Shown here: piece after piece, positions 15,118-32,977 of the stretch | Layout: each line of letters starts with the position of its first letter | Numbering within the stretch: position 1 is the stretch's first letter | Virus record (IMG/VR): IMGVR_UViG_2713896908_000011 | Span: 1-32,977 of that record | Strand: one strand, 5' to 3' | From: a virus | Lineage: Duplodnaviria; Heunggongvirae; Uroviricota; Caudoviricetes | Length of the DNA: 32,977 bases | Position numbers and translations under genes: made by a program | Notes under the pieces: generated by a model | The model's database searches: none | What the model saw: only the letters and a program-made list of their open reading frames with translations | Told to the model about the DNA's origin: nothing

Positions 15118-15338
15118 ATCCTCACCCCGATGTACACGGATGGTGCAATATGTTTGAAAAGATCGGAGTCTACGGGTTATTTTTTACAGCAAACGTTGTT
15201 CTCAACGACGCTCAAAAAATAGAAGCTTAAAATAATGCGGTTAAATATTTTAAAAGAAAAACCATCTATTAAATAATAATGCGGGATATATTTTTCTATT
15301 TAGTGTACTGTATACGGCCATTTATACAGGAAAAGCCT

Positions 15339-15509
15339 ATGTCAGAACGTAAAGACTCAAAATCACGCCGTAATTATCTCGTAAAATGTTCCTGCCCAAA
15401 CTGTACCCAAGAATCAGAACACAGTTTTTCTAGAGTACAAAAAGGTGCCCTTTTGATCTGCCCTCATTGCAACAAAGTATTCCAAACAAATCTTAAAGCT
15501 GTTGCCTGA
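15339..15509 (+). CDS. small zinc-ribbon protein (CxxC...CxxC), function unknown
   Basis: Start set at the internal ATG preceded by AGGAAAAG (MSERKDSKSRRNYLVKCSCPNCTQ...LICPHCNKVF...). Two CxxC pairs; opposite strand to the flanking late genes. The track ORF starts at 15279. Confidence 0.5.
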   Translation: MSERKDSKSRRNYLVKCSCPNCTQESEHSFSRVQKGALLICPHCNKVFQTNLKAVA

Positions 15510-15593: not shown

Positions 15594-15790
15594 GATTGTG
15601 GTGCTTTTTGTGGTAGTTACCCACTTACGCACTTTGTATTGCTATGCCAGCAGTTAGCTTCTACTGTAAAACTATTCATGCAGCAAACCTGCACTTCACC
15701 ACAAAATGGGATTCAATACCCACAACTCTATCTGCATCTCTACTCAGGCATCAGCCTTCTTCGTTATCGTATACAGACAAGCTATGAATT

Positions 15791-16006
15791 TTAATCAGTA
15801 ATAATGACATTTGCTGCTGCAGGACCTTTAGCACCACTCTCTACAGAGAAGGTAACCTTTTGGCCTTCAAATAAGGTTCGATAATTATCATTCTGAATTG
15901 CAGAAAAATGCACAAACACATCTTTACTACCATCAACAGGAGAAATAAAGCCAAAACCTTTATCAGCGTTAAACCATTTTACTAAACCAGTCATTTTATT
16001 TGACAT
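15791..16006 (-). CDS. cspB: cold-shock protein, CspA family (CspB-like)
   Basis: [53 protein letters not shown]... carries the RNP1 (KGFGFI) and RNP2 (VFVHF) motifs and matches E. coli CspB (a Qin prophage gene) as I recall it. AAGGAA Shine-Dalgarno is present. Confidence 0.9.
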
Positions 16007-16170
16007 TCTACATTCCTTAACTTGAGCCTTTCGGCATAAATGATTTGTATAACAGAAACGACTTCGTACTTAATTGGAGAGACTCAAAGAAGGAATAAGT
16101 GAATAACACCTGAAATGAGAACTGCTTTAGTAAACTACTTCGTATATCGTCTGTTCTTCAAACCGACGCT
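16007..16170 (-). promoter_or_regulatory. long 5' leader of the csp gene with cold-box-like element
   Basis: CspA-family mRNAs have ~160-nt structured leaders. The minus-strand sequence here contains GAAGAACAGACGAUAUACGAAG, reminiscent of the cspA cold box (UGACGUACAGA). Boundaries are approximate. Confidence 0.4.
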
Positions 16171-26901: not shown

Positions 26902-27455
26902 ACAAGATTGACTATCAGGCACTGCGTAACAAGGCAGAGAAAGCAACGTGGGGGGATTGGGACTCATATAAACCACACCGTGGCGTACGTGGTTATGAGG
27001 TCCGACTAAGTAGTCAGGCCATTGCACAACACGTTCTGAAAAACAACGCTGAATTTATTGCTGCCTTTAATCCAAAGGTTGCTTTGGCACTGCTGGATGA
27101 ACGGGAAAGAAATCAGCAATACATCAAATCACGCGACCAGGAGAACGAGGATATTGCGCTAACGGTAGGGAAGCTGCGTGTTGAGCTTGAGGAGACAAAA
27201 TCAAAACTCAACAAGCAGCGTGAATATTACGAAGGTGTTATCTCGGATGGAAGTAAGCACATAGCAGAGTTAGAAAGTGGTTCTCAGGTACAAAAGTTAG
27301 TTGAAGCAATCATTGTTGCGATAGAAAACGAACAGGAACGTCTTTTTGATGAAGATTACCTAATGGATTCGAAAGAATGCATTGACGTAATTCGTGAAGA
27401 AGTAAAGCGATGGAATGATTCCAGCGCCGCTGGCATTCGCATTAAAGGAGAGTGA
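26898..27455 (+). CDS. Ead/Ea22-like family protein
   Basis: GTG start with AGGAGG upstream. N-terminal MNKIDYQALRNKAEKATWGDWD... matches the conserved Ead/Ea22 N-terminal pattern (DYQALR..AEKAT.G.W), followed by a coiled-coil region. Confidence 0.7.
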   Translation: MNKIDYQALRNKAEKATWGDWDSYKPHRGVRGYEVRLSSQAIAQHVLKNNAEFIAAFNPKVALALLDERERNQQYIKSRDQENEDIALTVGKLRVELEETKSKLNKQREYYEGVISDGSKHIAELESGSQVQKLVEAIIVAIENEQERLFDEDYLMDSKECIDVIREEVKRWNDSSAAGIRIKGE

Positions 27456-27460
27456 GTGAT

Positions 27461-27658
27461 ATGGATAAAAATCCCCCTGCTTACTGGAGTCTGTCACTTG
27501 ATACCGAATGTCCAAAATGTGGTCACAATTTCGATCTGCTTTGTGATCCAGATTTCTGGGAGTTTTCTGGAGCTAAACAGGCATGTGAAGAAATAAAAGG
27601 TTACGAAACATGCTGTCCAGAATGTAACCATGAATTTAAAACAGATTTCGTGTATTGA
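27461..27658 (+). CDS. small zinc-ribbon protein
   Basis: MDKNPPAYWSLSLDTECPKCGH...CCPECNH...; two CxxC pairs. ATG at 27461 preferred over the GTG at 27452 because of AAGGAGAG spacing. Confidence 0.5.
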   Translation: MDKNPPAYWSLSLDTECPKCGHNFDLLCDPDFWEFSGAKQACEEIKGYETCCPECNHEFKTDFVY

Positions 27659-27986: not shown

Positions 27987-28604
27987 ATGAACGCTATTAC
28001 TAAAGAACGTATTGAATTATTCATTAAAAATCCGTTTGAAAACGGACTTACCCATGGCGAACAAATGGAACTGGCACGGATTGCGCTGGCATCGTTGGAA
28101 GCAGAACCGGTGGCATGGCTGCATTCAGACAATGGATTAGGTATTCCAGCAATAACCAGGAGTAAAAACATTGCTGACAGTTGGTTATCAAAGGGCTGGT
28201 ATGTTCAGCCGCTATATATAGCCAAGCCAGTGCCGGTGGTGCCAGATGCTCTTCCGTCTTTAAATAATGGCATAGTCGGCTTTGATGAAGGCTGGAACGC
28301 CTGCCGCGCCGCCATGCTTCGTGGTGCCAAACCTGTAAGCCAGACTTACAAGTTGAACGAGCTGTCGGGCAACTCTCCGGTAACTCCGGATGGTTGGATA
28401 AGCTGTAGTGAGCGAATGCCGAACGATAAACAGTATGTTTGGTGTTGGGGGAAGTCTTACGGCTGGACTGAGTGCGATACCTTCGAAGGGTATTACGATT
28501 GGTCGAGAAACAAATGGTGGGCAGTTACTGACAATGGGGAAGAACCGGCATCGAAAGTAACCCACTGGATGCCGCTACCGGAACCGCCGCAGGAGGTGAA
28601 GTAA
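27987..28604 (+). CDS. DUF551-domain protein
   Basis: C-terminal ...VTHWMPLPEPPQEVK is the characteristic DUF551 ending, with Trp-rich CxW repeats upstream. Confidence 0.7.
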   Translation: MNAITKERIELFIKNPFENGLTHGEQMELARIALASLEAEPVAWLHSDNGLGIPAITRSKNIADSWLSKGWYVQPLYIAKPVPVVPDALPSLNNGIVGFDEGWNACRAAMLRGAKPVSQTYKLNELSGNSPVTPDGWISCSERMPNDKQYVWCWGKSYGWTECDTFEGYYDWSRNKWWAVTDNGEEPASKVTHWMPLPEPPQEVK

Positions 28605-28798
28605 TGAACAACTTAATGACAACTAAACAAGTCGCCGACTTCTGTGGCGTTTCAGTATCGACCGTTCTTCGCTGGAACAGCGTAAACAGGAGAACTGGCC
28701 AGAAATACAGGCCTGAGTTTCCAGATCCGGATATTAAATCCTGCCCAAATAAATGGGCATCACACAAGATATACAGATTTGCTGGAATTATTGAGTAG
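28604..28798 (+). CDS. xis: AlpA-family HTH protein, putative excisionase
   Basis: 64 aa with GGAGGTG Shine-Dalgarno and a 1-nt overlap with the upstream stop. MTTKQVADFCGVSVSTVLRW...FPDP...W fits the AlpA/Xis-type HTH pattern; last gene of the early-left operon, nearest the integrase. Confidence 0.6.
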   Translation: MNNLMTTKQVADFCGVSVSTVLRWNSVNRRTGQKYRPEFPDPDIKSCPNKWASHKIYRFAGIIE

Positions 28799-29353: not shown

Positions 29354-29390
29354 AGCCGTTCTTGAGCATGGCTAAGAACGGTATTTTTAT
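29354..29390 (+). terminator. candidate rho-independent terminator at the end of the early-left operon
   Basis: Hairpin CCGTTCTT-(10-nt loop)-AAGAACGG (29356..29381) followed by TATTTTTAT; the reverse orientation is also followed by a T-rich tract, so it may be bidirectional. Confidence 0.5.
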
Positions 29391-29487
29391 ACTCAAGAAA
29401 TCGTATCCACATGATTTAACTAAGTTTTTCAACCTCACCCACCAACAAAATTTTTGTGCTGGACGACGTGTAGTCTGTATACCAATC

Positions 29488-29517
29488 TTGGTTTAATTGT
29501 ACTATCATTCGTAGAAT
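29488..29517 (+). promoter_or_regulatory. candidate sigma70 promoter for the three-gene cassette
   Basis: TTGGTT (29488..29493) - 18 nt - TAGAAT (29512..29517), about 30 nt upstream of the AGGAG Shine-Dalgarno and ATG at 29547. Confidence 0.35.
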
Positions 29518-29546
29518 GAAAAGAACAGCATATTGATAGGAGACAC

Positions 29547-30656
29547 ATGGAAAACAAGACCAATAAGGAAAAAAGTGTAAGAATTAGGCTGGCTTTTAAA
29601 AGATGGCAGCGAAGTGTTTCCCGTCAAGGGAAAGAGTATTCGCAGTTTCGTCAACAAAAAAAATCTCAAAAGAAAAAAGATAATACCTTTATTCGGTTTC
29701 CATCTGAGTTTTCAATATATTCACCAGATAAGCCTAATTTTTTTGCGCACTCTCTACACTCGATAAATCACGTCAGGAATAAAAAATACAATCCTGATGA
29801 GAGATTATATTTAGATTTTACAAATACAAAAACAATAAAAATGGCAGCATTAGTAATACTTTATGCCAGTGTTGAAACTTCAATTCGTAAAGGTTTATCG
29901 TACAGATTATTATTTTCAACAGATTTTAAAGTCAATCAGCTTTTAAGAGACTCGGGTCTTGTCGCCTTATGTCGGGGCGAAAAATTAAAACCTGTCTTCG
30001 AAAACGTTGAAAACTTGCCCATTATTAGCGGGGTAGGAGGAGAATATAGAGATGAGATTATAGATTTCATCCAGAAAGAAATTTATAAAAACAAGATGAA
30101 ACCTGAAACAGAACATACATATGCAGATGCTGTTCAGGAAGCAATAAATAATGTTGGTTTACACGCCTATCCGCATAAAAATAATGATGAGAAACGATGG
30201 TGGCTTGCATGTCACGTAATTCATGACCAGCTGTATCTTGCTATATATGATGAAGGTGTTGGTATACCTGAAACTGTAATGCAAAAGACATGGTTTATGA
30301 GTACGCTCAAATCAAAATATCCAGATCTAAAGGTTGCGGTTAACGAAGAACTTGAGAGAATAGGTTTAGGTTATAAAGAGCGCTCTAAAGTAAAAGTTGG
30401 TATTGTTTCTGATGCAGTAAAAATAGCAATTTCTATGATTGGAGACGTAACCGGTACAGCCAATGATAAACATGGTCAAGGAAGTAAGAGTATTAAAGCT
30501 CTAGTACTAAATAATGAACATGGAAACCTTTGGATTTACAGTAATTTAGGTATGTTCAAGCTTTCTAATAAGAAAGGTGATAAAATTAATGAGTTAACTC
30601 ATAAAGTACCAGGTACTTTAATTCAGTGGAACATCAAGGTCAGCTATGAAGACTAA
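29547..30656 (+). CDS. GHKL-superfamily ATPase/kinase, RsbW/SpoIIAB-like (anti-sigma-factor-type HATPase_c) with novel N-terminal domain
   Basis: 369 aa with AGGAG Shine-Dalgarno. Bergerat-fold motifs in the C-terminal half: N-box AVQEAINNVGLHAY (compare EA.TNA..HAY of RsbW/SpoIIAB), G1-box IYDEGVGIP, G2-like ERIGLGYKE. The N-terminal ~190 aa are Lys/Arg-rich and not recognised. AT-rich codon usage. Confidence 0.7.
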   Translation: MENKTNKEKSVRIRLAFKRWQRSVSRQGKEYSQFRQQKKSQKKKDNTFIRFPSEFSIYSPDKPNFFAHSLHSINHVRNKKYNPDERLYLDFTNTKTIKMAALVILYASVETSIRKGLSYRLLFSTDFKVNQLLRDSGLVALCRGEKLKPVFENVENLPIISGVGGEYRDEIIDFIQKEIYKNKMKPETEHTYADAVQEAINNVGLHAYPHKNNDEKRWWLACHVIHDQLYLAIYDEGVGIPETVMQKTWFMSTLKSKYPDLKVAVNEELERIGLGYKERSKVKVGIVSDAVKIAISMIGDVTGTANDKHGQGSKSIKALVLNNEHGNLWIYSNLGMFKLSNKKGDKINELTHKVPGTLIQWNIKVSYED

Positions 30657-30978
30657 AAACATCAATGTTATCAAAGACTTCAACAGTAAGCCTTACGGGC
30701 GCTATCCAGACGATGGGGCAGGCTGTGGGGAAAACTTTCGCAAATATCTGGCAGGCTTTCTCAAAGAGTATGATTTAGTTCATGTTGAGTTGACTGGATA
30801 TAACCGTTATGGGCGTTCATTTATTGATGAAGCGTTTGGTGGCTTGATCCGAGTAGAAGGCTACACATTAAGCGAACTTAAGAAAAAACTAACTTATACT
30901 CATAAAGATATTAAGAGTATTGAGACCTTGATTGATGAACGATTGAATAAGGCAGAGAGTGATGCAGGAAGAGGTTAA
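30646..30978 (+). CDS. DUF4325/STAS-like small protein (putative anti-anti-sigma-type partner of the GHKL protein)
   Basis: 110 aa, ATG overlapping the upstream gene by 11 nt. Core VHVELTGYNRYGRSFIDEAFGGLIR matches the DUF4325 STAS-like pattern (LDF.GV...S.SF.DE.FG.L) as I recall it. Confidence 0.6.
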   Translation: MKTKNINVIKDFNSKPYGRYPDDGAGCGENFRKYLAGFLKEYDLVHVELTGYNRYGRSFIDEAFGGLIRVEGYTLSELKKKLTYTHKDIKSIETLIDERLNKAESDAGRG

Positions 30979-31456
30979 TTATACAAGTATTGTGATTGCT
31001 ATAATTGGTTGGCTTGTTGCGTCTTATTTCAACAATAGAGCATTCAAGCGAAATGATATTTCAAGGCAAAAGGATAAAATCTGTCAGCAAATAGAATCTC
31101 TTTTTGATAATGTTTTAGATAAGCTCTCTTCTAGAGATACTAAAGAATTAGAGCTGGATAATTTTTTAGCCTCCAGTGTCTCATTAATTGAAATGCAGCT
31201 GTCTCATTTATCACAAAGGATTGGTAAGAAATTATTATGTGATGAACAGTTGTCATCTATCAGATCAACACCTTTAGACTTGTTAAGCAAAAAGTGTGAT
31301 TATAAAAATGAACTTCATGAGATGAAGTATTCAATATTAGAGGAAATTGAAGGTAATTATACAAAATGGTTTTTTGATAGTTACTCAAAAAGATTCAAAT
31401 CCATCTTTGCATCAAAAAGAAGCACACCTAATACTGATCTGAATAGACTATCTTGA
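30962..31456 (+). CDS. single-pass membrane protein (candidate effector of the cassette)
   Basis: Overlaps the upstream stop by ~17 nt. N-terminal TM helix (SIVIAIIGWLVASYF) followed by a ~140-aa helical soluble domain with no recognisable motif. ATG at 30962 preferred over the GTG at 30959. Confidence 0.6.
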   Translation: MQEEVNYTSIVIAIIGWLVASYFNNRAFKRNDISRQKDKICQQIESLFDNVLDKLSSRDTKELELDNFLASSVSLIEMQLSHLSQRIGKKLLCDEQLSSIRSTPLDLLSKKCDYKNELHEMKYSILEEIEGNYTKWFFDSYSKRFKSIFASKRSTPNTDLNRLS

Positions 31457-31462
31457 TAAATA

Positions 31463-31482
31463 GCGCCTTGCATTCAAGGCGC
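31463..31482. terminator. hairpin between the convergent cassette and integrase (possible terminator)
   Basis: Perfect 8-bp stem GCGCCTTG-CATT-CAAGGCGC, 7 nt after the cassette stop. The following tract is A-rich on the plus strand and weakly T-rich on the minus, so direction is ambiguous. Confidence 0.4.
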
Positions 31483-31753: not shown

Positions 31754-32977
31754 TCAGTTGGGGTCTGAGCTAATACAAGCAACTATCAATTCAACCCTCT
31801 CCCACCATACCTGGTAGGCTTTACGCTGTTCTTCTAGATAATCGCTCTTGTCATAAACCTGCCATCCCCCTGGCAACTTATGACCAAGCATAATTTCTGC
31901 AATATGAGGCGCAGTAAGATCAGAAAAGTTTGTTCGTGCTGTTCGCCTCAAATCATGAAGAGACCAATGAGGGAATTGATACCCCAAACGTCGCCATGCG
32001 AACTGCATTAAATTGTAAGGCAGCGACTGCAATGATGTCCGACCAACTGGCTCCCTGCTTCCTTCCTTAGTAAAAAGCATATCGGAACCGTTGTTCATAG
32101 AGATAACGTATTTTATAAGCTCTTCAACCGGCCCAATAATGGGCCGCTTTAGTGGTTCGCCTGTTATCTCCCCTGTCTTATGTCGTTCTGGCGGTACAGT
32201 CCATACCTTATTAATGAAATCAAAATCGTCCACCCTAGCGGTAATTAGCTCTGAACTACGGCAGCCAAAATGCAACAATAGTTTAATGAAGGCCCGGTAT
32301 TTAGGAACCATTCGAGAACCATCGATCGCAGCATAAAGGATTTTAATTTCATCATGTGTCAGAAACCGTTTCTTCTGACCTTTACGGATATCCATATCTT
32401 TACCTGTGATATCCGACAGCGGGCGAGTTTCAATGAGCTTTCTCTTATACGCCCAGACATGGGCCTGCTTTGCGTTAATTAGCAATCGGTCAGCTATTGC
32501 TGGAGTCTTAGTGCTAAGAGGCTCCAAGACCTCTAACCAATCATGCAATGTAGCTGCATCGTGAGGGATACTCCCGATTTTAGAGAACAGGTGCAGTTCA
32601 AATGAGCGGAGTATCTGCTCAGCACCTTTTTTATTTTTTACACAATATGCTTCATACCAAGCACGGATCACAGACTCTACAGTCATGGCTTCAGTAGCTT
32701 TGCGTTTTTCTGCCTGCTTGACCAATCGTGGATTGCGGTTTGACTCGAGTTCACCACGGAGACGGATAACTTCTTCTCTGGCCTCTTTTAATCCAGTTGC
32801 CGGGTAAGTTCCGATATCAAGACGCTCACCTTTCCCTGCCCATTGATAACGATATTGGAACACTACGCGACCTTTCGGTGATACTCTGACAGACAGACCA
32901 TCACGATCGGATTTAACCAAAACCTTATCACGTTCCTTTCCAACAACTGAACGCAACCACGCATCAGACAGCGCCAT
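31754..32977 (-). CDS. int: tyrosine-type site-specific integrase (P4-like, with N-terminal arm-binding DUF4102-like domain)
   Basis: 407 aa. N-terminal MALSDAWLRSVVGKERDKVLVKSDRDGLSVRVSPKGRVVFQYRYQW... is P4-integrase-like. C-terminal catalytic elements HDLRRTART (HxxR) and a Tyr in ...GGWQVYDKSDYLEE. The ATG sits exactly at the window edge, so the true start may lie beyond. Confidence 0.9.
   Translation of the reverse strand: MALSDAWLRSVVGKERDKVLVKSDRDGLSVRVSPKGRVVFQYRYQWAGKGERLDIGTYPATGLKEAREEVIRLRGELESNRNPRLVKQAEKRKATEAMTVESVIRAWYEAYCVKNKKGAEQILRSFELHLFSKIGSIPHDAATLHDWLEVLEPLSTKTPAIADRLLINAKQAHVWAYKRKLIETRPLSDITGKDMDIRKGQKKRFLTHDEIKILYAAIDGSRMVPKYRAFIKLLLHFGCRSSELITARVDDFDFINKVWTVPPERHKTGEITGEPLKRPIIGPVEELIKYVISMNNGSDMLFTKEGSREPVGRTSLQSLPYNLMQFAWRRLGYQFPHWSLHDLRRTARTNFSDLTAPHIAEIMLGHKLPGGWQVYDKSDYLEEQRKAYQVWWERVELIVACISSDPN

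What the first reader, a model, noticed from the sequence alone, without database searches (positions are those of the whole stretch)
29547..31456. Translationally coupled three-gene cassette (RsbW-like GHKL ATPase + DUF4325/STAS-like + membrane protein): candidate undescribed partner-switching defence module
Three plus-strand ORFs overlap at both junctions (11 nt and ~17 nt), implying a single operon with coupled translation. Gene 1 carries anti-sigma-factor-type GHKL motifs (AVQEAINNVGLHAY, DEGVGIP) behind an unrecognised basic N-terminal domain. Gene 2 looks like a DUF4325/STAS domain, the fold of anti-sigma antagonists that GHKL serine kinases phosphorylate. Gene 3 is a single-pass membrane protein with no motif. 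Kinase, STAS partner and membrane effector are consistent with a phosphorylation-gated partner switch that releases a membrane-disrupting effector on infection, though the trigger and mechanism are guesses. It sits between the excisionase and integrase, a classic accessory slot in temperate phages, in visibly AT-rich DNA, and I cannot match it to any named system.
Basis: partly seen in the sequence, partly recalled or inferred. Interest (0 to 1): 0.88.

Follow-up and report, generated by a model that had tools for sequence, protein, structure and literature searches.

The report
Conserved prophage STAS-kinase-membrane gene trio
Three tightly packed genes next to a prophage integrase form a widely conserved module: an ATP-binding switch protein, a small partner protein and a membrane protein. 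It rides on phages and phage satellites in slots where anti-phage genes usually sit, but nobody has shown what it does.

Summary
Three intact plus-strand ORFs (29547-30656, 30646-30978, 30962-31456) overlap by 11 and 17 nt. They lie in 34-36% GC DNA between a DUF551/HTH gene block and a P4-type integrase of an E. coli lambdoid prophage.

Gene 1 is more than "GHKL behind an unknown domain". It has a basic helix, its own STAS domain and an RsbW/SpoIIAB-like GHKL domain with a ~65-residue insertion in the ATP lid. Gene 2 is a DUF4325 STAS-like protein. Gene 3 is an N-terminally anchored four-helix bundle.

The trio is strictly conserved in all 35 genomic and 33 viral loci examined. The gene-1 family has about 1,600 cluster representatives at E<=1e-10.

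It recurs in three places: directly downstream of the cI repressor (the rexAB position), next to integrases, and in the P4 psu-int hotspot. In the P4 hotspot it was already catalogued, untested, as "HATPase_c | DUF4325".

It matches no PADLOC v2 system. Neither STAS domain keeps a recognisable canonical phospho-serine (weak alignments), so a phosphorylation-gated switch is unsupported. A look-alike E. coli trio ("VPUS") gave no protection in a published screen.

Best reading: a lysogen-expressed candidate anti-phage or exclusion module. It is an ATP-dependent partner switch at the membrane, with function unproven.

The parts
28604..28798 (+). It is the last gene of the rightward early block before the cassette.
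   Evidence: Weak HTH_17 match, E 1.4e-4, 22.5 bits, below the cut-off of 27. Preceded by a DUF551 gene at 27987-28604.
29355..29382 (+). Terminator-like hairpin followed by a T-run, about 165 nt upstream of g1. It may insulate the cassette from upstream transcription.
   Evidence: Consensus scan. Such sites are not enriched over shuffles, so this is only a pointer.
29538..29542 (+). AGGAG ribosome-binding site 4 nt before the g1 ATG.
   Evidence: Sequence read directly.
29547..30656 (+). Gene 1: 369-aa STAS-GHKL fusion protein.
   Evidence: ORF. phrog_3364, E 1e-55. 240 word-indexed homologues. 2,549 cluster representatives at E<=1e-3 and 1,605 at E<=1e-10, nearly all of the listed ones 300-394 aa. 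AF2 model pLDDT 87.6, pTM 0.81.
29550..29627 (+). g1 N-terminal basic helix (aa 2-26), followed by a low-confidence Lys/Gln-rich linker to about aa 44.
   Evidence: AF2 secondary structure and pLDDT. R26 is invariant and Y31 nearly invariant.
29679..30086 (+). g1 STAS domain (about aa 45-180).
30102..30638 (+). g1 GHKL (Bergerat-fold) ATP-binding domain (about aa 186-364). N box aa 198-209 (30138-30173), G1 box aa 235-241 (30249-30269), G2-like HGQGSKSI aa 309-316 (30471-30494), GTLIQWNI aa 356-363 (30612-30635).
30270..30470 (+). Helical insertion of about 65 residues (aa 242-308) between the G1 and G2 boxes, that is, inside the ATP lid.
   Evidence: Helices 249-298 in the AF2 model. No counterpart in the SpoIIAB alignment. 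Distant family members match in two stretches that skip this region.
30646..30978 (+). Gene 2: 110-aa DUF4325 (STAS-like) protein. The core motif GYNRYGRSFIDEAFGGL (aa 51-67, 30796-30846) is invariant apart from I60 and A63.
   Evidence: Pfam DUF4325 above the gathering score. 266 homologues; the 120 listed are 56-98% identical. Invariant columns. It is the most conserved of the three proteins: 62-63% identity between E. coli and Pseudomonas or Vibrio.
30962..31456 (+). Gene 3: 164-aa membrane-anchored protein. TM helix aa 7-25 (30980-31036), basic juxtamembrane motif NxRAFKRxxxSRxKDK, four-helix bundle aa 32-153 (31055-31420).
31463..31482 (.). GC-rich palindromic hairpin between the convergent g3 and int genes. 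It is a likely two-way transcription stop.
   Evidence: The T-run is weak on both strands.
31754..32977 (-). P4-type tyrosine integrase (407 aa), convergent with the cassette. The prophage end lies just beyond it, next to yjjG in related genomes.
   Evidence: Pfam Arm-DNA-bind_3 + Phage_int_M + Phage_integrase. Synteny in L001. The same integrase occurs in 700 of 5,426 E. coli genomes, with other cargo in this slot.

Best explanation
The cassette is an autonomous, horizontally mobile three-gene module carried by temperate phages, P4-like satellites and integrative islands. It is probably expressed in the lysogen. Its most likely job is to protect the lysogen and the element against other phages, by superinfection exclusion or abortive infection.

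**Proposed mechanism.**
- Gene 1 is a cytosolic ATP-dependent switch. An RsbW/SpoIIAB-like GHKL domain is fused to its own STAS domain.
- Gene 2 is a second, free STAS-like (DUF4325) protein.
- The two STAS-type surfaces compete for the GHKL domain, depending on the bound nucleotide or on a phage cue.
- The state of this switch is passed to gene 3, a four-helix-bundle protein anchored in the inner membrane. Gene 3 either recruits the complex to the site of phage entry or is released to damage the membrane.

**Shown.**
- The operon structure.
- The domain identities and the intact ATP-binding motifs.
- The strict three-gene conservation.
- A natural g1-membrane-anchor fusion.
- The genomic positions.

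**Inferred.**
- Expression in lysogens.
- Physical interaction of the three proteins.
- Anti-phage function.
- The direction of signalling.
- What g3 does.

A classical serine-phosphorylation switch is not favoured, because the canonical acceptor serine is not recognisable in either STAS domain.
For: **Operon.** Overlaps of 11 and 17 nt here. Junctions overlap by 4-26 nt or leave a gap of at most 3 nt in relatives. One distant locus (L042) has an 80-nt gap before the third gene.

**Domains.** g1 is STAS plus a SpoIIAB/RsbW-like GHKL domain, with N, G1, G2 and GT motifs invariant or nearly so. g2 is DUF4325.

**Co-occurrence.**
- g1 is followed by g2 in 35 of 35 genomic loci. A g3-type protein follows wherever the contig allows.
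- The same holds in 33 of 33 IMG/VR contigs and in four distant family members.
- One relative (P0455) fuses g1 to a C-terminal TM helix plus helical tail.

**Positions.**
- Directly downstream of a CI-type repressor on the same strand in 11 of 33 viral contigs, with gaps of 14-88 nt.
- The same arrangement in Marinobacter phage AS1 and Francisella phage KIRK (PMC7924643). This is the slot that rexAB occupies in lambda (my knowledge).
- Next to an integrase: 13 of 135 and 10 of 119 flanking ORFs are integrases.
- In the P4 psu-int hotspot, which Rousset et al. showed to be a reservoir of anti-phage systems (PMC9122126).
- Adjacent to known defence genes in chromosomal islands: PD-Lambda-1 directly upstream in L031, PDC-S28 in L030, an MzaA-like protein plus a DRT in L028, a PD-T4-6-like kinase in L034.

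**Mobility.**
- AT-rich relative to its surroundings.
- Present in only 10 of 5,426 complete E. coli genomes.
- The neighbouring integrases are only 25% identical.
- Only 6 of the 700 E. coli genomes with this integrase carry the trio.
Against: - There is no experimental evidence of protection.
- A three-gene E. coli unit with the same annotation pattern and size ('VPUS': hypothetical / STAS-like / hypothetical, 1,871 bp) was predicted as defensive (log-odds 5.75). Once cloned in MG1655 it gave no protection against 24 phages (PMC13092281, Table S6). If VPUS is a homologue, which I could not verify, that counts against defence, or at least against activity on that phage panel.
- No PADLOC v2 model matches any of the three proteins.
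- The four alternative cargos I looked at in this integrase's slot in other E. coli are not recognisable defence genes, apart from an HNH domain.
- g3 has no resemblance to a known pore or effector. Its fold matches are generic. The enterobacterial clade has only one TM helix.
- The canonical STAS phospho-acceptor is not recognisable, so the analogy with partner switching may be only structural.
Confidence: 0.5

Rival explanations
1. Lysogenic-conversion regulator. The RsbW-like protein and its STAS partners plug into host signalling and change host physiology for the benefit of the lysogen rather than fighting phages. They might do this by sequestering a host sigma factor or another regulator, or by sensing envelope stress through g3.
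Against: No sigma factor or output domain is part of the module in any locus. The module works across hosts as different as E. coli, Pseudomonas, Vibrio, Pasteurellaceae and Francisella, which argues against one specific host target. Its occupancy of the P4 hotspot and its adjacency to defence genes fit immunity better.
Confidence: 0.15
2. Sensor for the element's own life cycle. The module reports on cell state (ATP level, membrane state) and feeds into the lysis-lysogeny, induction or excision decisions of the prophage or satellite.
For: It recurs immediately next to the two decision genes, cI and int. ATP-state-dependent partner binding is a known property of SpoIIAB-type proteins (my knowledge).
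Against: The same module sits in chromosomal islands with no repressor or integrase nearby, next to defence genes. It also sits in the P4 hotspot, where cargo is interchangeable. Only 6 of the 700 E. coli genomes with this integrase have it, so it is dispensable for the element. The partner integrases are unrelated lineages, 25% identical.
Confidence: 0.12
3. Addiction or stabilisation module. g3, or the g1 ATPase, is toxic and is held in check by g2, so loss of the element kills or slows the cell, as with a toxin-antitoxin system.
For: The operon is small, tightly coupled and AT-rich, and sits on mobile elements. DUF4325 genes are reported to be transcriptionally coupled to a PIN/VapC-type group, PIN.4 (PMC5499597). 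The original P4 hotspot cargo gop-beta-cII behaves like a toxin-antitoxin pair.
Against: The strong conservation of an intact ATP-binding site and of two STAS domains is more elaborate than a simple toxin-antitoxin pair. There is no homology to known toxins or antitoxins in Pfam, NCBIfam or PADLOC. Many toxin-antitoxin systems are themselves anti-phage, so this rival overlaps with the main reading.
Confidence: 0.1
4. Classical phosphorylation-gated partner switch. g1 phosphorylates g2 on serine or threonine, and the phosphorylation state decides whether g3 is released.
Against: In a weak local alignment, the position equivalent to SpoIIAA Ser58 is an invariant Glu in g2, preceded by an invariant Asp. 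In my manual register it is Met or Ala in the STAS domain of g1. No PP2C-type phosphatase partner is part of the module, and none appeared among the 25 most frequent flanking families shown.
Confidence: 0.1

Closest known systems
SpoIIAB-SpoIIAA and RsbW-RsbV partner-switching modules (anti-sigma serine kinase plus STAS antagonist)
   Same: The g1 C-terminal domain has the same Bergerat fold, with N and G1 boxes that align to SpoIIAB. STAS-type partners are encoded with it: one fused, one adjacent.
   Different: - g1 is 369 aa, not about 145 aa. Its STAS domain is fused N-terminally and it has an insertion of about 65 residues in the ATP lid.
- The canonical phospho-serine is not recognisable in either STAS domain (weak alignments).
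- There is no sigma factor and no PP2C phosphatase in the module.
- The third component is a membrane protein.
- The module is carried by phages and satellites.
System 69 'HATPase_c | DUF4325' of the P4 psu-int hotspot catalogue (Rousset et al. 2022, Table S1B)
   Same: It is the same three-protein family. The catalogued proteins WP_016234813, WP_016234814 and WP_016234815 are those of locus L036. Their g1 cluster (P0011) is 48% identical to the window's g1 and their g2 (P0139) is 61% identical. The catalogue also notes '1 TM in protein 3'.
   Different: That copy sits in P4-like satellites at ssrA. The window copy sits in a lambdoid prophage next to a different integrase, 25% identical. The catalogue entry is a list item: it is absent from their table of tested systems and has no name or mechanism.
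Lambda RexAB (cI-linked exclusion system: cytosolic sensor plus membrane protein)
   Same: In at least six lineages the trio lies directly downstream of cI on the same strand. It combines cytosolic proteins with a membrane protein. This is a likeness in logic.
   Different: There is no sequence relationship. PHROGs gave only families of unknown function and a TM-only holin match. The module has three proteins, not two. In the window itself the cassette is next to int, not cI.
SiaB-SiaC of Pseudomonas aeruginosa (GHKL kinase plus non-canonical STAS-like protein)
   Different: SiaABCD controls a diguanylate cyclase and includes a PP2C phosphatase (my knowledge). Neither is present here.
Rv1364c of Mycobacterium tuberculosis (fused RsbU-RsbW-RsbV protein)
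   Different: The domain order and content differ: phosphatase, then kinase, then STAS. It is a chromosomal stress regulator, not a mobile three-gene module.
DefensePredictor candidate 'VPUS' (DeWeirdt et al., Science 2026, Table S6)
   Same: It is an E. coli three-gene unit annotated hypothetical / STAS-like / hypothetical, 1,871 bp. Variants of this trio span 1,854-1,916 bp.
   Different: Homology is not verified, because I could not obtain its sequences. Its accessions (WP_000060412, WP_001244589, WP_000154254) are not those of either E. coli variant found here. It scored non-defensive against 24 phages.

Membership tests
RsbW/SpoIIAB-type GHKL anti-sigma serine kinases | Bergerat ATP-binding fold with N, G1 and G2 boxes | tested here: met
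RsbW/SpoIIAB-type GHKL anti-sigma serine kinases | Small single-domain protein (about 140-160 aa) that binds a cognate sigma factor | tested here: not met
   g1 is 369 aa, with a fused STAS domain and a lid insertion. No sigma-factor gene belongs to the module in 35 genomic or 33 viral loci.
RsbW/SpoIIAB-type GHKL anti-sigma serine kinases | Serine kinase activity on the STAS partner | not testable with these tools
   Needs biochemistry.
STAS / anti-sigma-factor antagonists (SpoIIAA, RsbV) | STAS fold | tested here: met
STAS / anti-sigma-factor antagonists (SpoIIAA, RsbV) | Conserved phosphorylatable Ser/Thr at the start of helix alpha-3 (SpoIIAA Ser58) | tested here: inconclusive
   The local hhalign alignment puts the invariant D61-E62 of g2 on SpoIIAA D57-S58, but the alignment is not significant (probability 0.3%). 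In the g1 STAS domain my manual register, anchored on the alpha-4 match, puts Met99 (window) or Ala (consensus) at that position. The preceding residue is Ser or Thr in some clades and Lys in the enterobacterial ones. A structure-based alignment was not possible.
Named anti-phage defence systems (PADLOC-DB v2.0.0, 2023) | Match of the proteins to the system's HMMs | tested here: not met
   No hit for g1 or g2. Only a noise-level LeoBC hit for g3, E 0.014. Newer DefenseFinder and PADLOC releases could not be run.
P4 hotspot system 69 'HATPase_c | DUF4325' (Rousset et al. 2022) | The same three homologous proteins in the same order | tested here: met
   The sequences printed in Table S1B carry the invariant HGQGSKSI and GYNRYGRSF motifs and the g3 GW...N.R motif. 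Their accessions are those of L036, which blastn links to the window cassette.
P4 hotspot system 69 'HATPase_c | DUF4325' (Rousset et al. 2022) | Location between psu and int of a P4-like satellite | tested here: not met
   The window copy lies in a lambdoid prophage with portal, terminase, lysis, Q, cI-type and yfdP-R genes. L036 and L037 do meet this feature.
Lambda RexAB-type exclusion modules | Homology to RexA and RexB | tested here: not met
   The PHROGs scan returned only families of unknown function and a TM-only holin match. PADLOC returned nothing.
Lambda RexAB-type exclusion modules | Encoded directly downstream of cI in the lysogenic operon, with a membrane component | tested here: inconclusive
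   Met in relatives: phage AS1, phage KIRK and 11 of 33 viral contigs. Not met in the window, where the cassette is about 6 kb from the cI-type gene and next to int.
Validated anti-phage defence system (functional definition) | Reduces phage plating or causes abortive infection when expressed | not testable with these tools
   The only possibly relevant experiment, VPUS, was negative. Its homology to this trio is unverified.

The most novel reading that the evidence does not exclude
The trio is the founding example of a new class of lysogen-expressed anti-phage systems. This class would reuse the bacterial STAS/GHKL partner-switching logic, so far known only from sigma-factor and second-messenger control, to couple detection of infection to a membrane-anchored effector. 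It would work through an ATP-state switch rather than through serine phosphorylation. With about 1,600 cluster representatives and repeated capture into the cI-proximal, int-proximal and P4 hotspot slots, it would be a widespread, unnamed immune module.
Probability: 0.35. Interest if true: 0.8.

Novelty: new variant of a known kind. Interest (0 to 1): 0.6.

Why it matters
If it protects against phages, it would add a signalling principle not yet seen in bacterial immunity: a STAS/GHKL partner switch. It would also explain a gene family of more than a thousand clusters that is annotated only as "ATP-binding protein / STAS-like / hypothetical".

The module is small and has clear mutational handles (N box, G1 box, the g2 Asp-Glu pair, the g3 membrane anchor). 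Its repeated position behind cI gives a direct way to test expression and function in natural lysogens. One well-designed experiment could settle it.

If it does not protect, it is still a recurrent lysogeny-linked module whose role would be worth knowing.

Tried and rejected
1. **P. aeruginosa hotspot.** I recalled that the P. aeruginosa copies, which lie between mutS and cinA, sit in 'core defence hotspot 1'. The paper shows that cDHS1 is flanked by MerR and DUF4011 genes, so I dropped the claim.

2. **Identity of VPUS.** Its accessions and peptide motifs are absent from the held supplements except Table S6. blastn with three variants of the trio against complete E. coli genomes found only the two known variants or nothing. 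Cluster look-ups did not show its accessions. This stays unresolved.

3. **Deep-alignment model of g3.** The model used rests on four close sequences.

5. **Solved structures.** Sequence searches against the PDB found nothing for g1 or g2.

6. **Is this integrase slot a defence hotspot?** The cargo varies between genomes, but the alternative cargos are not recognisable defence genes.

7. **RNA and repeats.** Rfam and repeat scans of the cassette found nothing relevant. The promoter and terminator scan is not enriched over shuffles.

8. **Chance ORFs on the other strand.** The minus-strand ORFs inside the cassette are all 54 aa or shorter. I did not pursue them.
Full report
**1.

- The junction sequences read directly show an 11-nt overlap (ATGAAGACTAA) and a 17-nt overlap.
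- An AGGAG lies 4 nt before the g1 start.
- GC is 0.34-0.36 across the cassette, against about 0.45-0.56 for most of the window.
- At that composition, open frames of 369, 164 and 110 codons are very unlikely by chance (my arithmetic: about 1e-12, 5e-6 and 3e-4).
- Identical or near-identical copies are annotated as three genes in six complete E. coli genomes.
- The window is a lambdoid prophage with portal, terminase, lysis, Q, repressor and yfdP-R genes. Its P4-type integrase abuts yjjG.

**2. What the proteins are.**

*Gene 1.* Sequence models see only a short, sub-threshold GHKL signal: Pfam HATPase_c_2 at E 0.012 and NCBIfam RsbW at E 2e-6, far below its cut-off.
- A 52-sequence alignment shows invariant or nearly invariant N-box (E198, N202, H206), G1 (D235-x-G-x-G), G2-like (HGQGSKSI) and GT-x-x-QWNI motifs.
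- The AlphaFold model is confident (pLDDT 87.6, pTM 0.81).
- A profile comparison with SpoIIAB aligns the N and G1 boxes (E 3.5e-6).
- So g1 is a basic helix, a STAS domain and an RsbW-like GHKL domain. The GHKL domain carries a helical insertion of about 65 residues inside the ATP lid.

*Gene 2.* It is a DUF4325 STAS-like protein and the most conserved of the three. Identity is 62-63% between E. coli, Pseudomonas and Vibrio, with an almost invariant GYNRYGRSFIDEAFGGL core.

*Gene 3.* It has one N-terminal TM helix, a basic juxtamembrane motif and a four-helix bundle.
- By the positive-inside rule (my inference), the basic motif places the bundle in the cytoplasm.
- Relatives outside the Enterobacterales usually add a C-terminal TM helix.

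**3. The trio is one conserved unit.**
- In all 35 genomic loci fetched (about 29 non-redundant), g1 is followed directly by a DUF4325 gene. These loci cover Enterobacterales, Pseudomonas, Vibrio, Shewanella, Pasteurellaceae, Marinobacter and metagenome-assembled genomes.
- A g3-type gene follows wherever the contig allows.
- The same is true of 33 of 33 IMG/VR viral contigs and of four distant relatives sampled from the wider family.
- The g1 family has 2,549 cluster representatives at E<=1e-3 and 1,605 at E<=1e-10. Nearly all of the listed ones are 300-394 aa.
- One relative fuses g1 to a C-terminal TM helix and helical tail and lacks a separate DUF4325 gene. This ties g1 to the membrane.
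- No member has a solved structure detectable by sequence.

**4. Where it lives.**

The module is rare and mobile.
- It occurs in 10 of 5,426 complete E. coli genomes: six in this prophage type and four in P4-like satellites.
- It occurs in one of 50,697 phage records and two of 72,556 plasmids.

Three positions recur.

(a) *Directly downstream of a CI-type repressor, on the same strand.*
- This holds in 11 of 33 viral contigs, with gaps of 14-88 nt.
- It also holds in Marinobacter phage AS1, where cI is followed by a g1-like gene, a DUF4325 gene and a TM protein.
- Francisella phage KIRK has the same order in its published gene table (PMC7924643).
- This is the place rexAB occupies in lambda (my knowledge). 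It implies expression in the lysogen.

(b) *Next to an integrase.*
- Integrases make up 13 of 135 and 10 of 119 flanking ORFs, and the window is one such case.
- The window's integrase is found in 700 E. coli genomes. The slot beside it holds different cargo in each genome examined.
- The integrases that accompany the trio in different elements are only 25% identical.

(c) *The psu-int hotspot of P4-like satellites*. Rousset et al. showed this hotspot to be a reservoir of anti-phage systems.

In chromosomal islands the trio also sits beside known defence genes: PD-Lambda-1, PDC-S28, an MzaA-like protein with a DRT, and a PD-T4-6-like kinase.

**5. Prior record.**
- The P4 version is listed as system 69, "HATPase_c | DUF4325", with 9 loci and "1 TM in protein 3", in Table S1B of Rousset et al. 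2022. It does not appear in their table of tested systems.
- DUF4325-containing three-gene cassettes also appear in their table of P2 hotspots. I did not test whether these are homologous.
- DefensePredictor (PMC13092281) predicted a three-gene E. coli unit, "VPUS", as defensive. VPUS is annotated hypothetical / STAS-like / hypothetical and spans 1,871 bp.
- The authors cloned VPUS and found no protection against 24 phages. I could not obtain its sequences, so its homology to this trio is likely but unproven.
- No paper in the searchable library links STAS or DUF4325 proteins with phage defence.
- PADLOC v2 has no model that matches.

**6. How it most likely works.**

I commit to a lysogen-expressed exclusion or abortive-infection module built as an ATP-dependent partner switch at the membrane (confidence 0.5).
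- *Shown:* operon coupling, domain identities, intact ATP-binding motifs, strict three-way co-occurrence, a natural g1-anchor fusion, and the genomic positions.
- *Inferred:* that the fused STAS domain and the free DUF4325 protein compete for the GHKL domain; that the nucleotide state or a phage cue flips this; that g3 is the output; and that the outcome is anti-phage.

- In a weak alignment, g2 has an invariant Asp-Glu where SpoIIAA has Asp-Ser58.
- In my manual register, g1's own STAS domain has Met or Ala there.
- No phosphatase belongs to the module.
- A non-canonical acceptor site (g2 Ser58 or Ser91) cannot be excluded.

**7. Rivals.**
- A host-signalling lysogenic-conversion regulator (0.15).
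- A sensor feeding the element's own induction or excision decisions (0.12).
- An addiction module (0.10).
- The classical phospho-switch variant of the defence idea (0.10).

The interchangeable-cargo contexts and the breadth of hosts argue against the first two. The elaborate, conserved ATP site argues against a simple toxin-antitoxin pair.

**8. Comparison and novelty.**
- It works like a partner-switching module, and in position like RexAB.
- It is not a member of the RsbW/SpoIIAB family in the strict sense: the size, the fusion, the lid insertion, and the lack of a sigma factor and of a canonical serine all differ.
- It is not a member of any named defence system tested.
- It is a member of the family catalogued, without study, as P4 hotspot system 69.
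- I rate it a new variant of a known kind, with interest 0.6. It is a well-supported, widespread, experimentally tractable candidate. Two things temper this: it has already been noticed in a catalogue, and a look-alike has given a negative test.

Noticed in passing
window 15775-16167 (-), ORF 15791-16006 (-): A cold-shock protein gene (71 aa, CspA family) with a full-length cspA thermoregulator 5' UTR (Rfam RF01766, 155.9 bits). It lies in the AT-rich gap (GC about 0.375) between the antiterminator Q gene and the lysis genes, a typical moron position.
   Followed up: partly
window 31754-32977 and loci L048-L051: The same P4-type integrase (at least 90% identical) is present in 700 of 5,426 complete E. 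coli genomes. In the five loci inspected it lies next to yjjG. The slot between the DUF551 gene and int carries a different cargo in each genome examined: an 876-aa HNH-domain protein and hypothetical proteins of 417, 331 and 239 aa. None matches PADLOC v2 beyond the HNH domain.
   Followed up: partly
L044 5001-6419 (protein P0455): A 472-aa relative of gene 1 is fused to a C-terminal transmembrane helix and helical tail. No DUF4325 gene follows it. It lies in an integrase / AlpA / VapE-primase element. This is a natural fusion of the g1 and g3 roles.
   Followed up: partly
L041 (Marinobacter phage AS1) 4115-6493; Francisella phage KIRK Fhv_0045-0048: In two sequenced temperate phages the distantly related trio lies immediately downstream of the CI repressor and divergent from cro. 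In AS1 a LuxR/GerE-type regulator follows it.
   Followed up: yes
Rousset et al. 2022 Table S5 (P2-like prophage loci): P2 hotspot loci near a DinI gene contain 'hypothetical + DUF4325 + hypothetical' cassettes (for example WP_042005405, WP_086258518, WP_119743262). Whether they are homologous to this trio, or to 'VPUS', is unknown.
   Followed up: no
literature, PMC5499597: A VapC-like PIN group (PIN.4) is reported as transcriptionally coupled to genes encoding DUF4325. PHROG 5816 is a 441-aa phage protein family with DUF4325 at its C-terminus. DUF4325 therefore seems to be a reusable partner domain in several conflict-type operons.
   Followed up: no
window 29355-29382 (+): A terminator-like hairpin with a T-run inside the 750-bp non-coding stretch between the HTH ORF and gene 1. 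It suggests that the cassette has its own promoter in 29390-29546.
   Followed up: no
window 27452-27658 (+) and 15279-15509 (+): Two small ORFs (68 and 76 aa) with paired CxxC motifs, possibly zinc ribbons. Their function is unknown, and the first has only a weak Rad50 zinc-hook match.
   Followed up: no
cluster look-up: Some database entries for the window-type gene 1, from Enterobacter and Klebsiella (396-426 aa) and Dickeya (426 aa), are annotated with a start 27-57 residues further upstream. In the window a stop codon rules this out, so those longer forms may be start-site miscalls or a real N-terminal extension.
   Followed up: no
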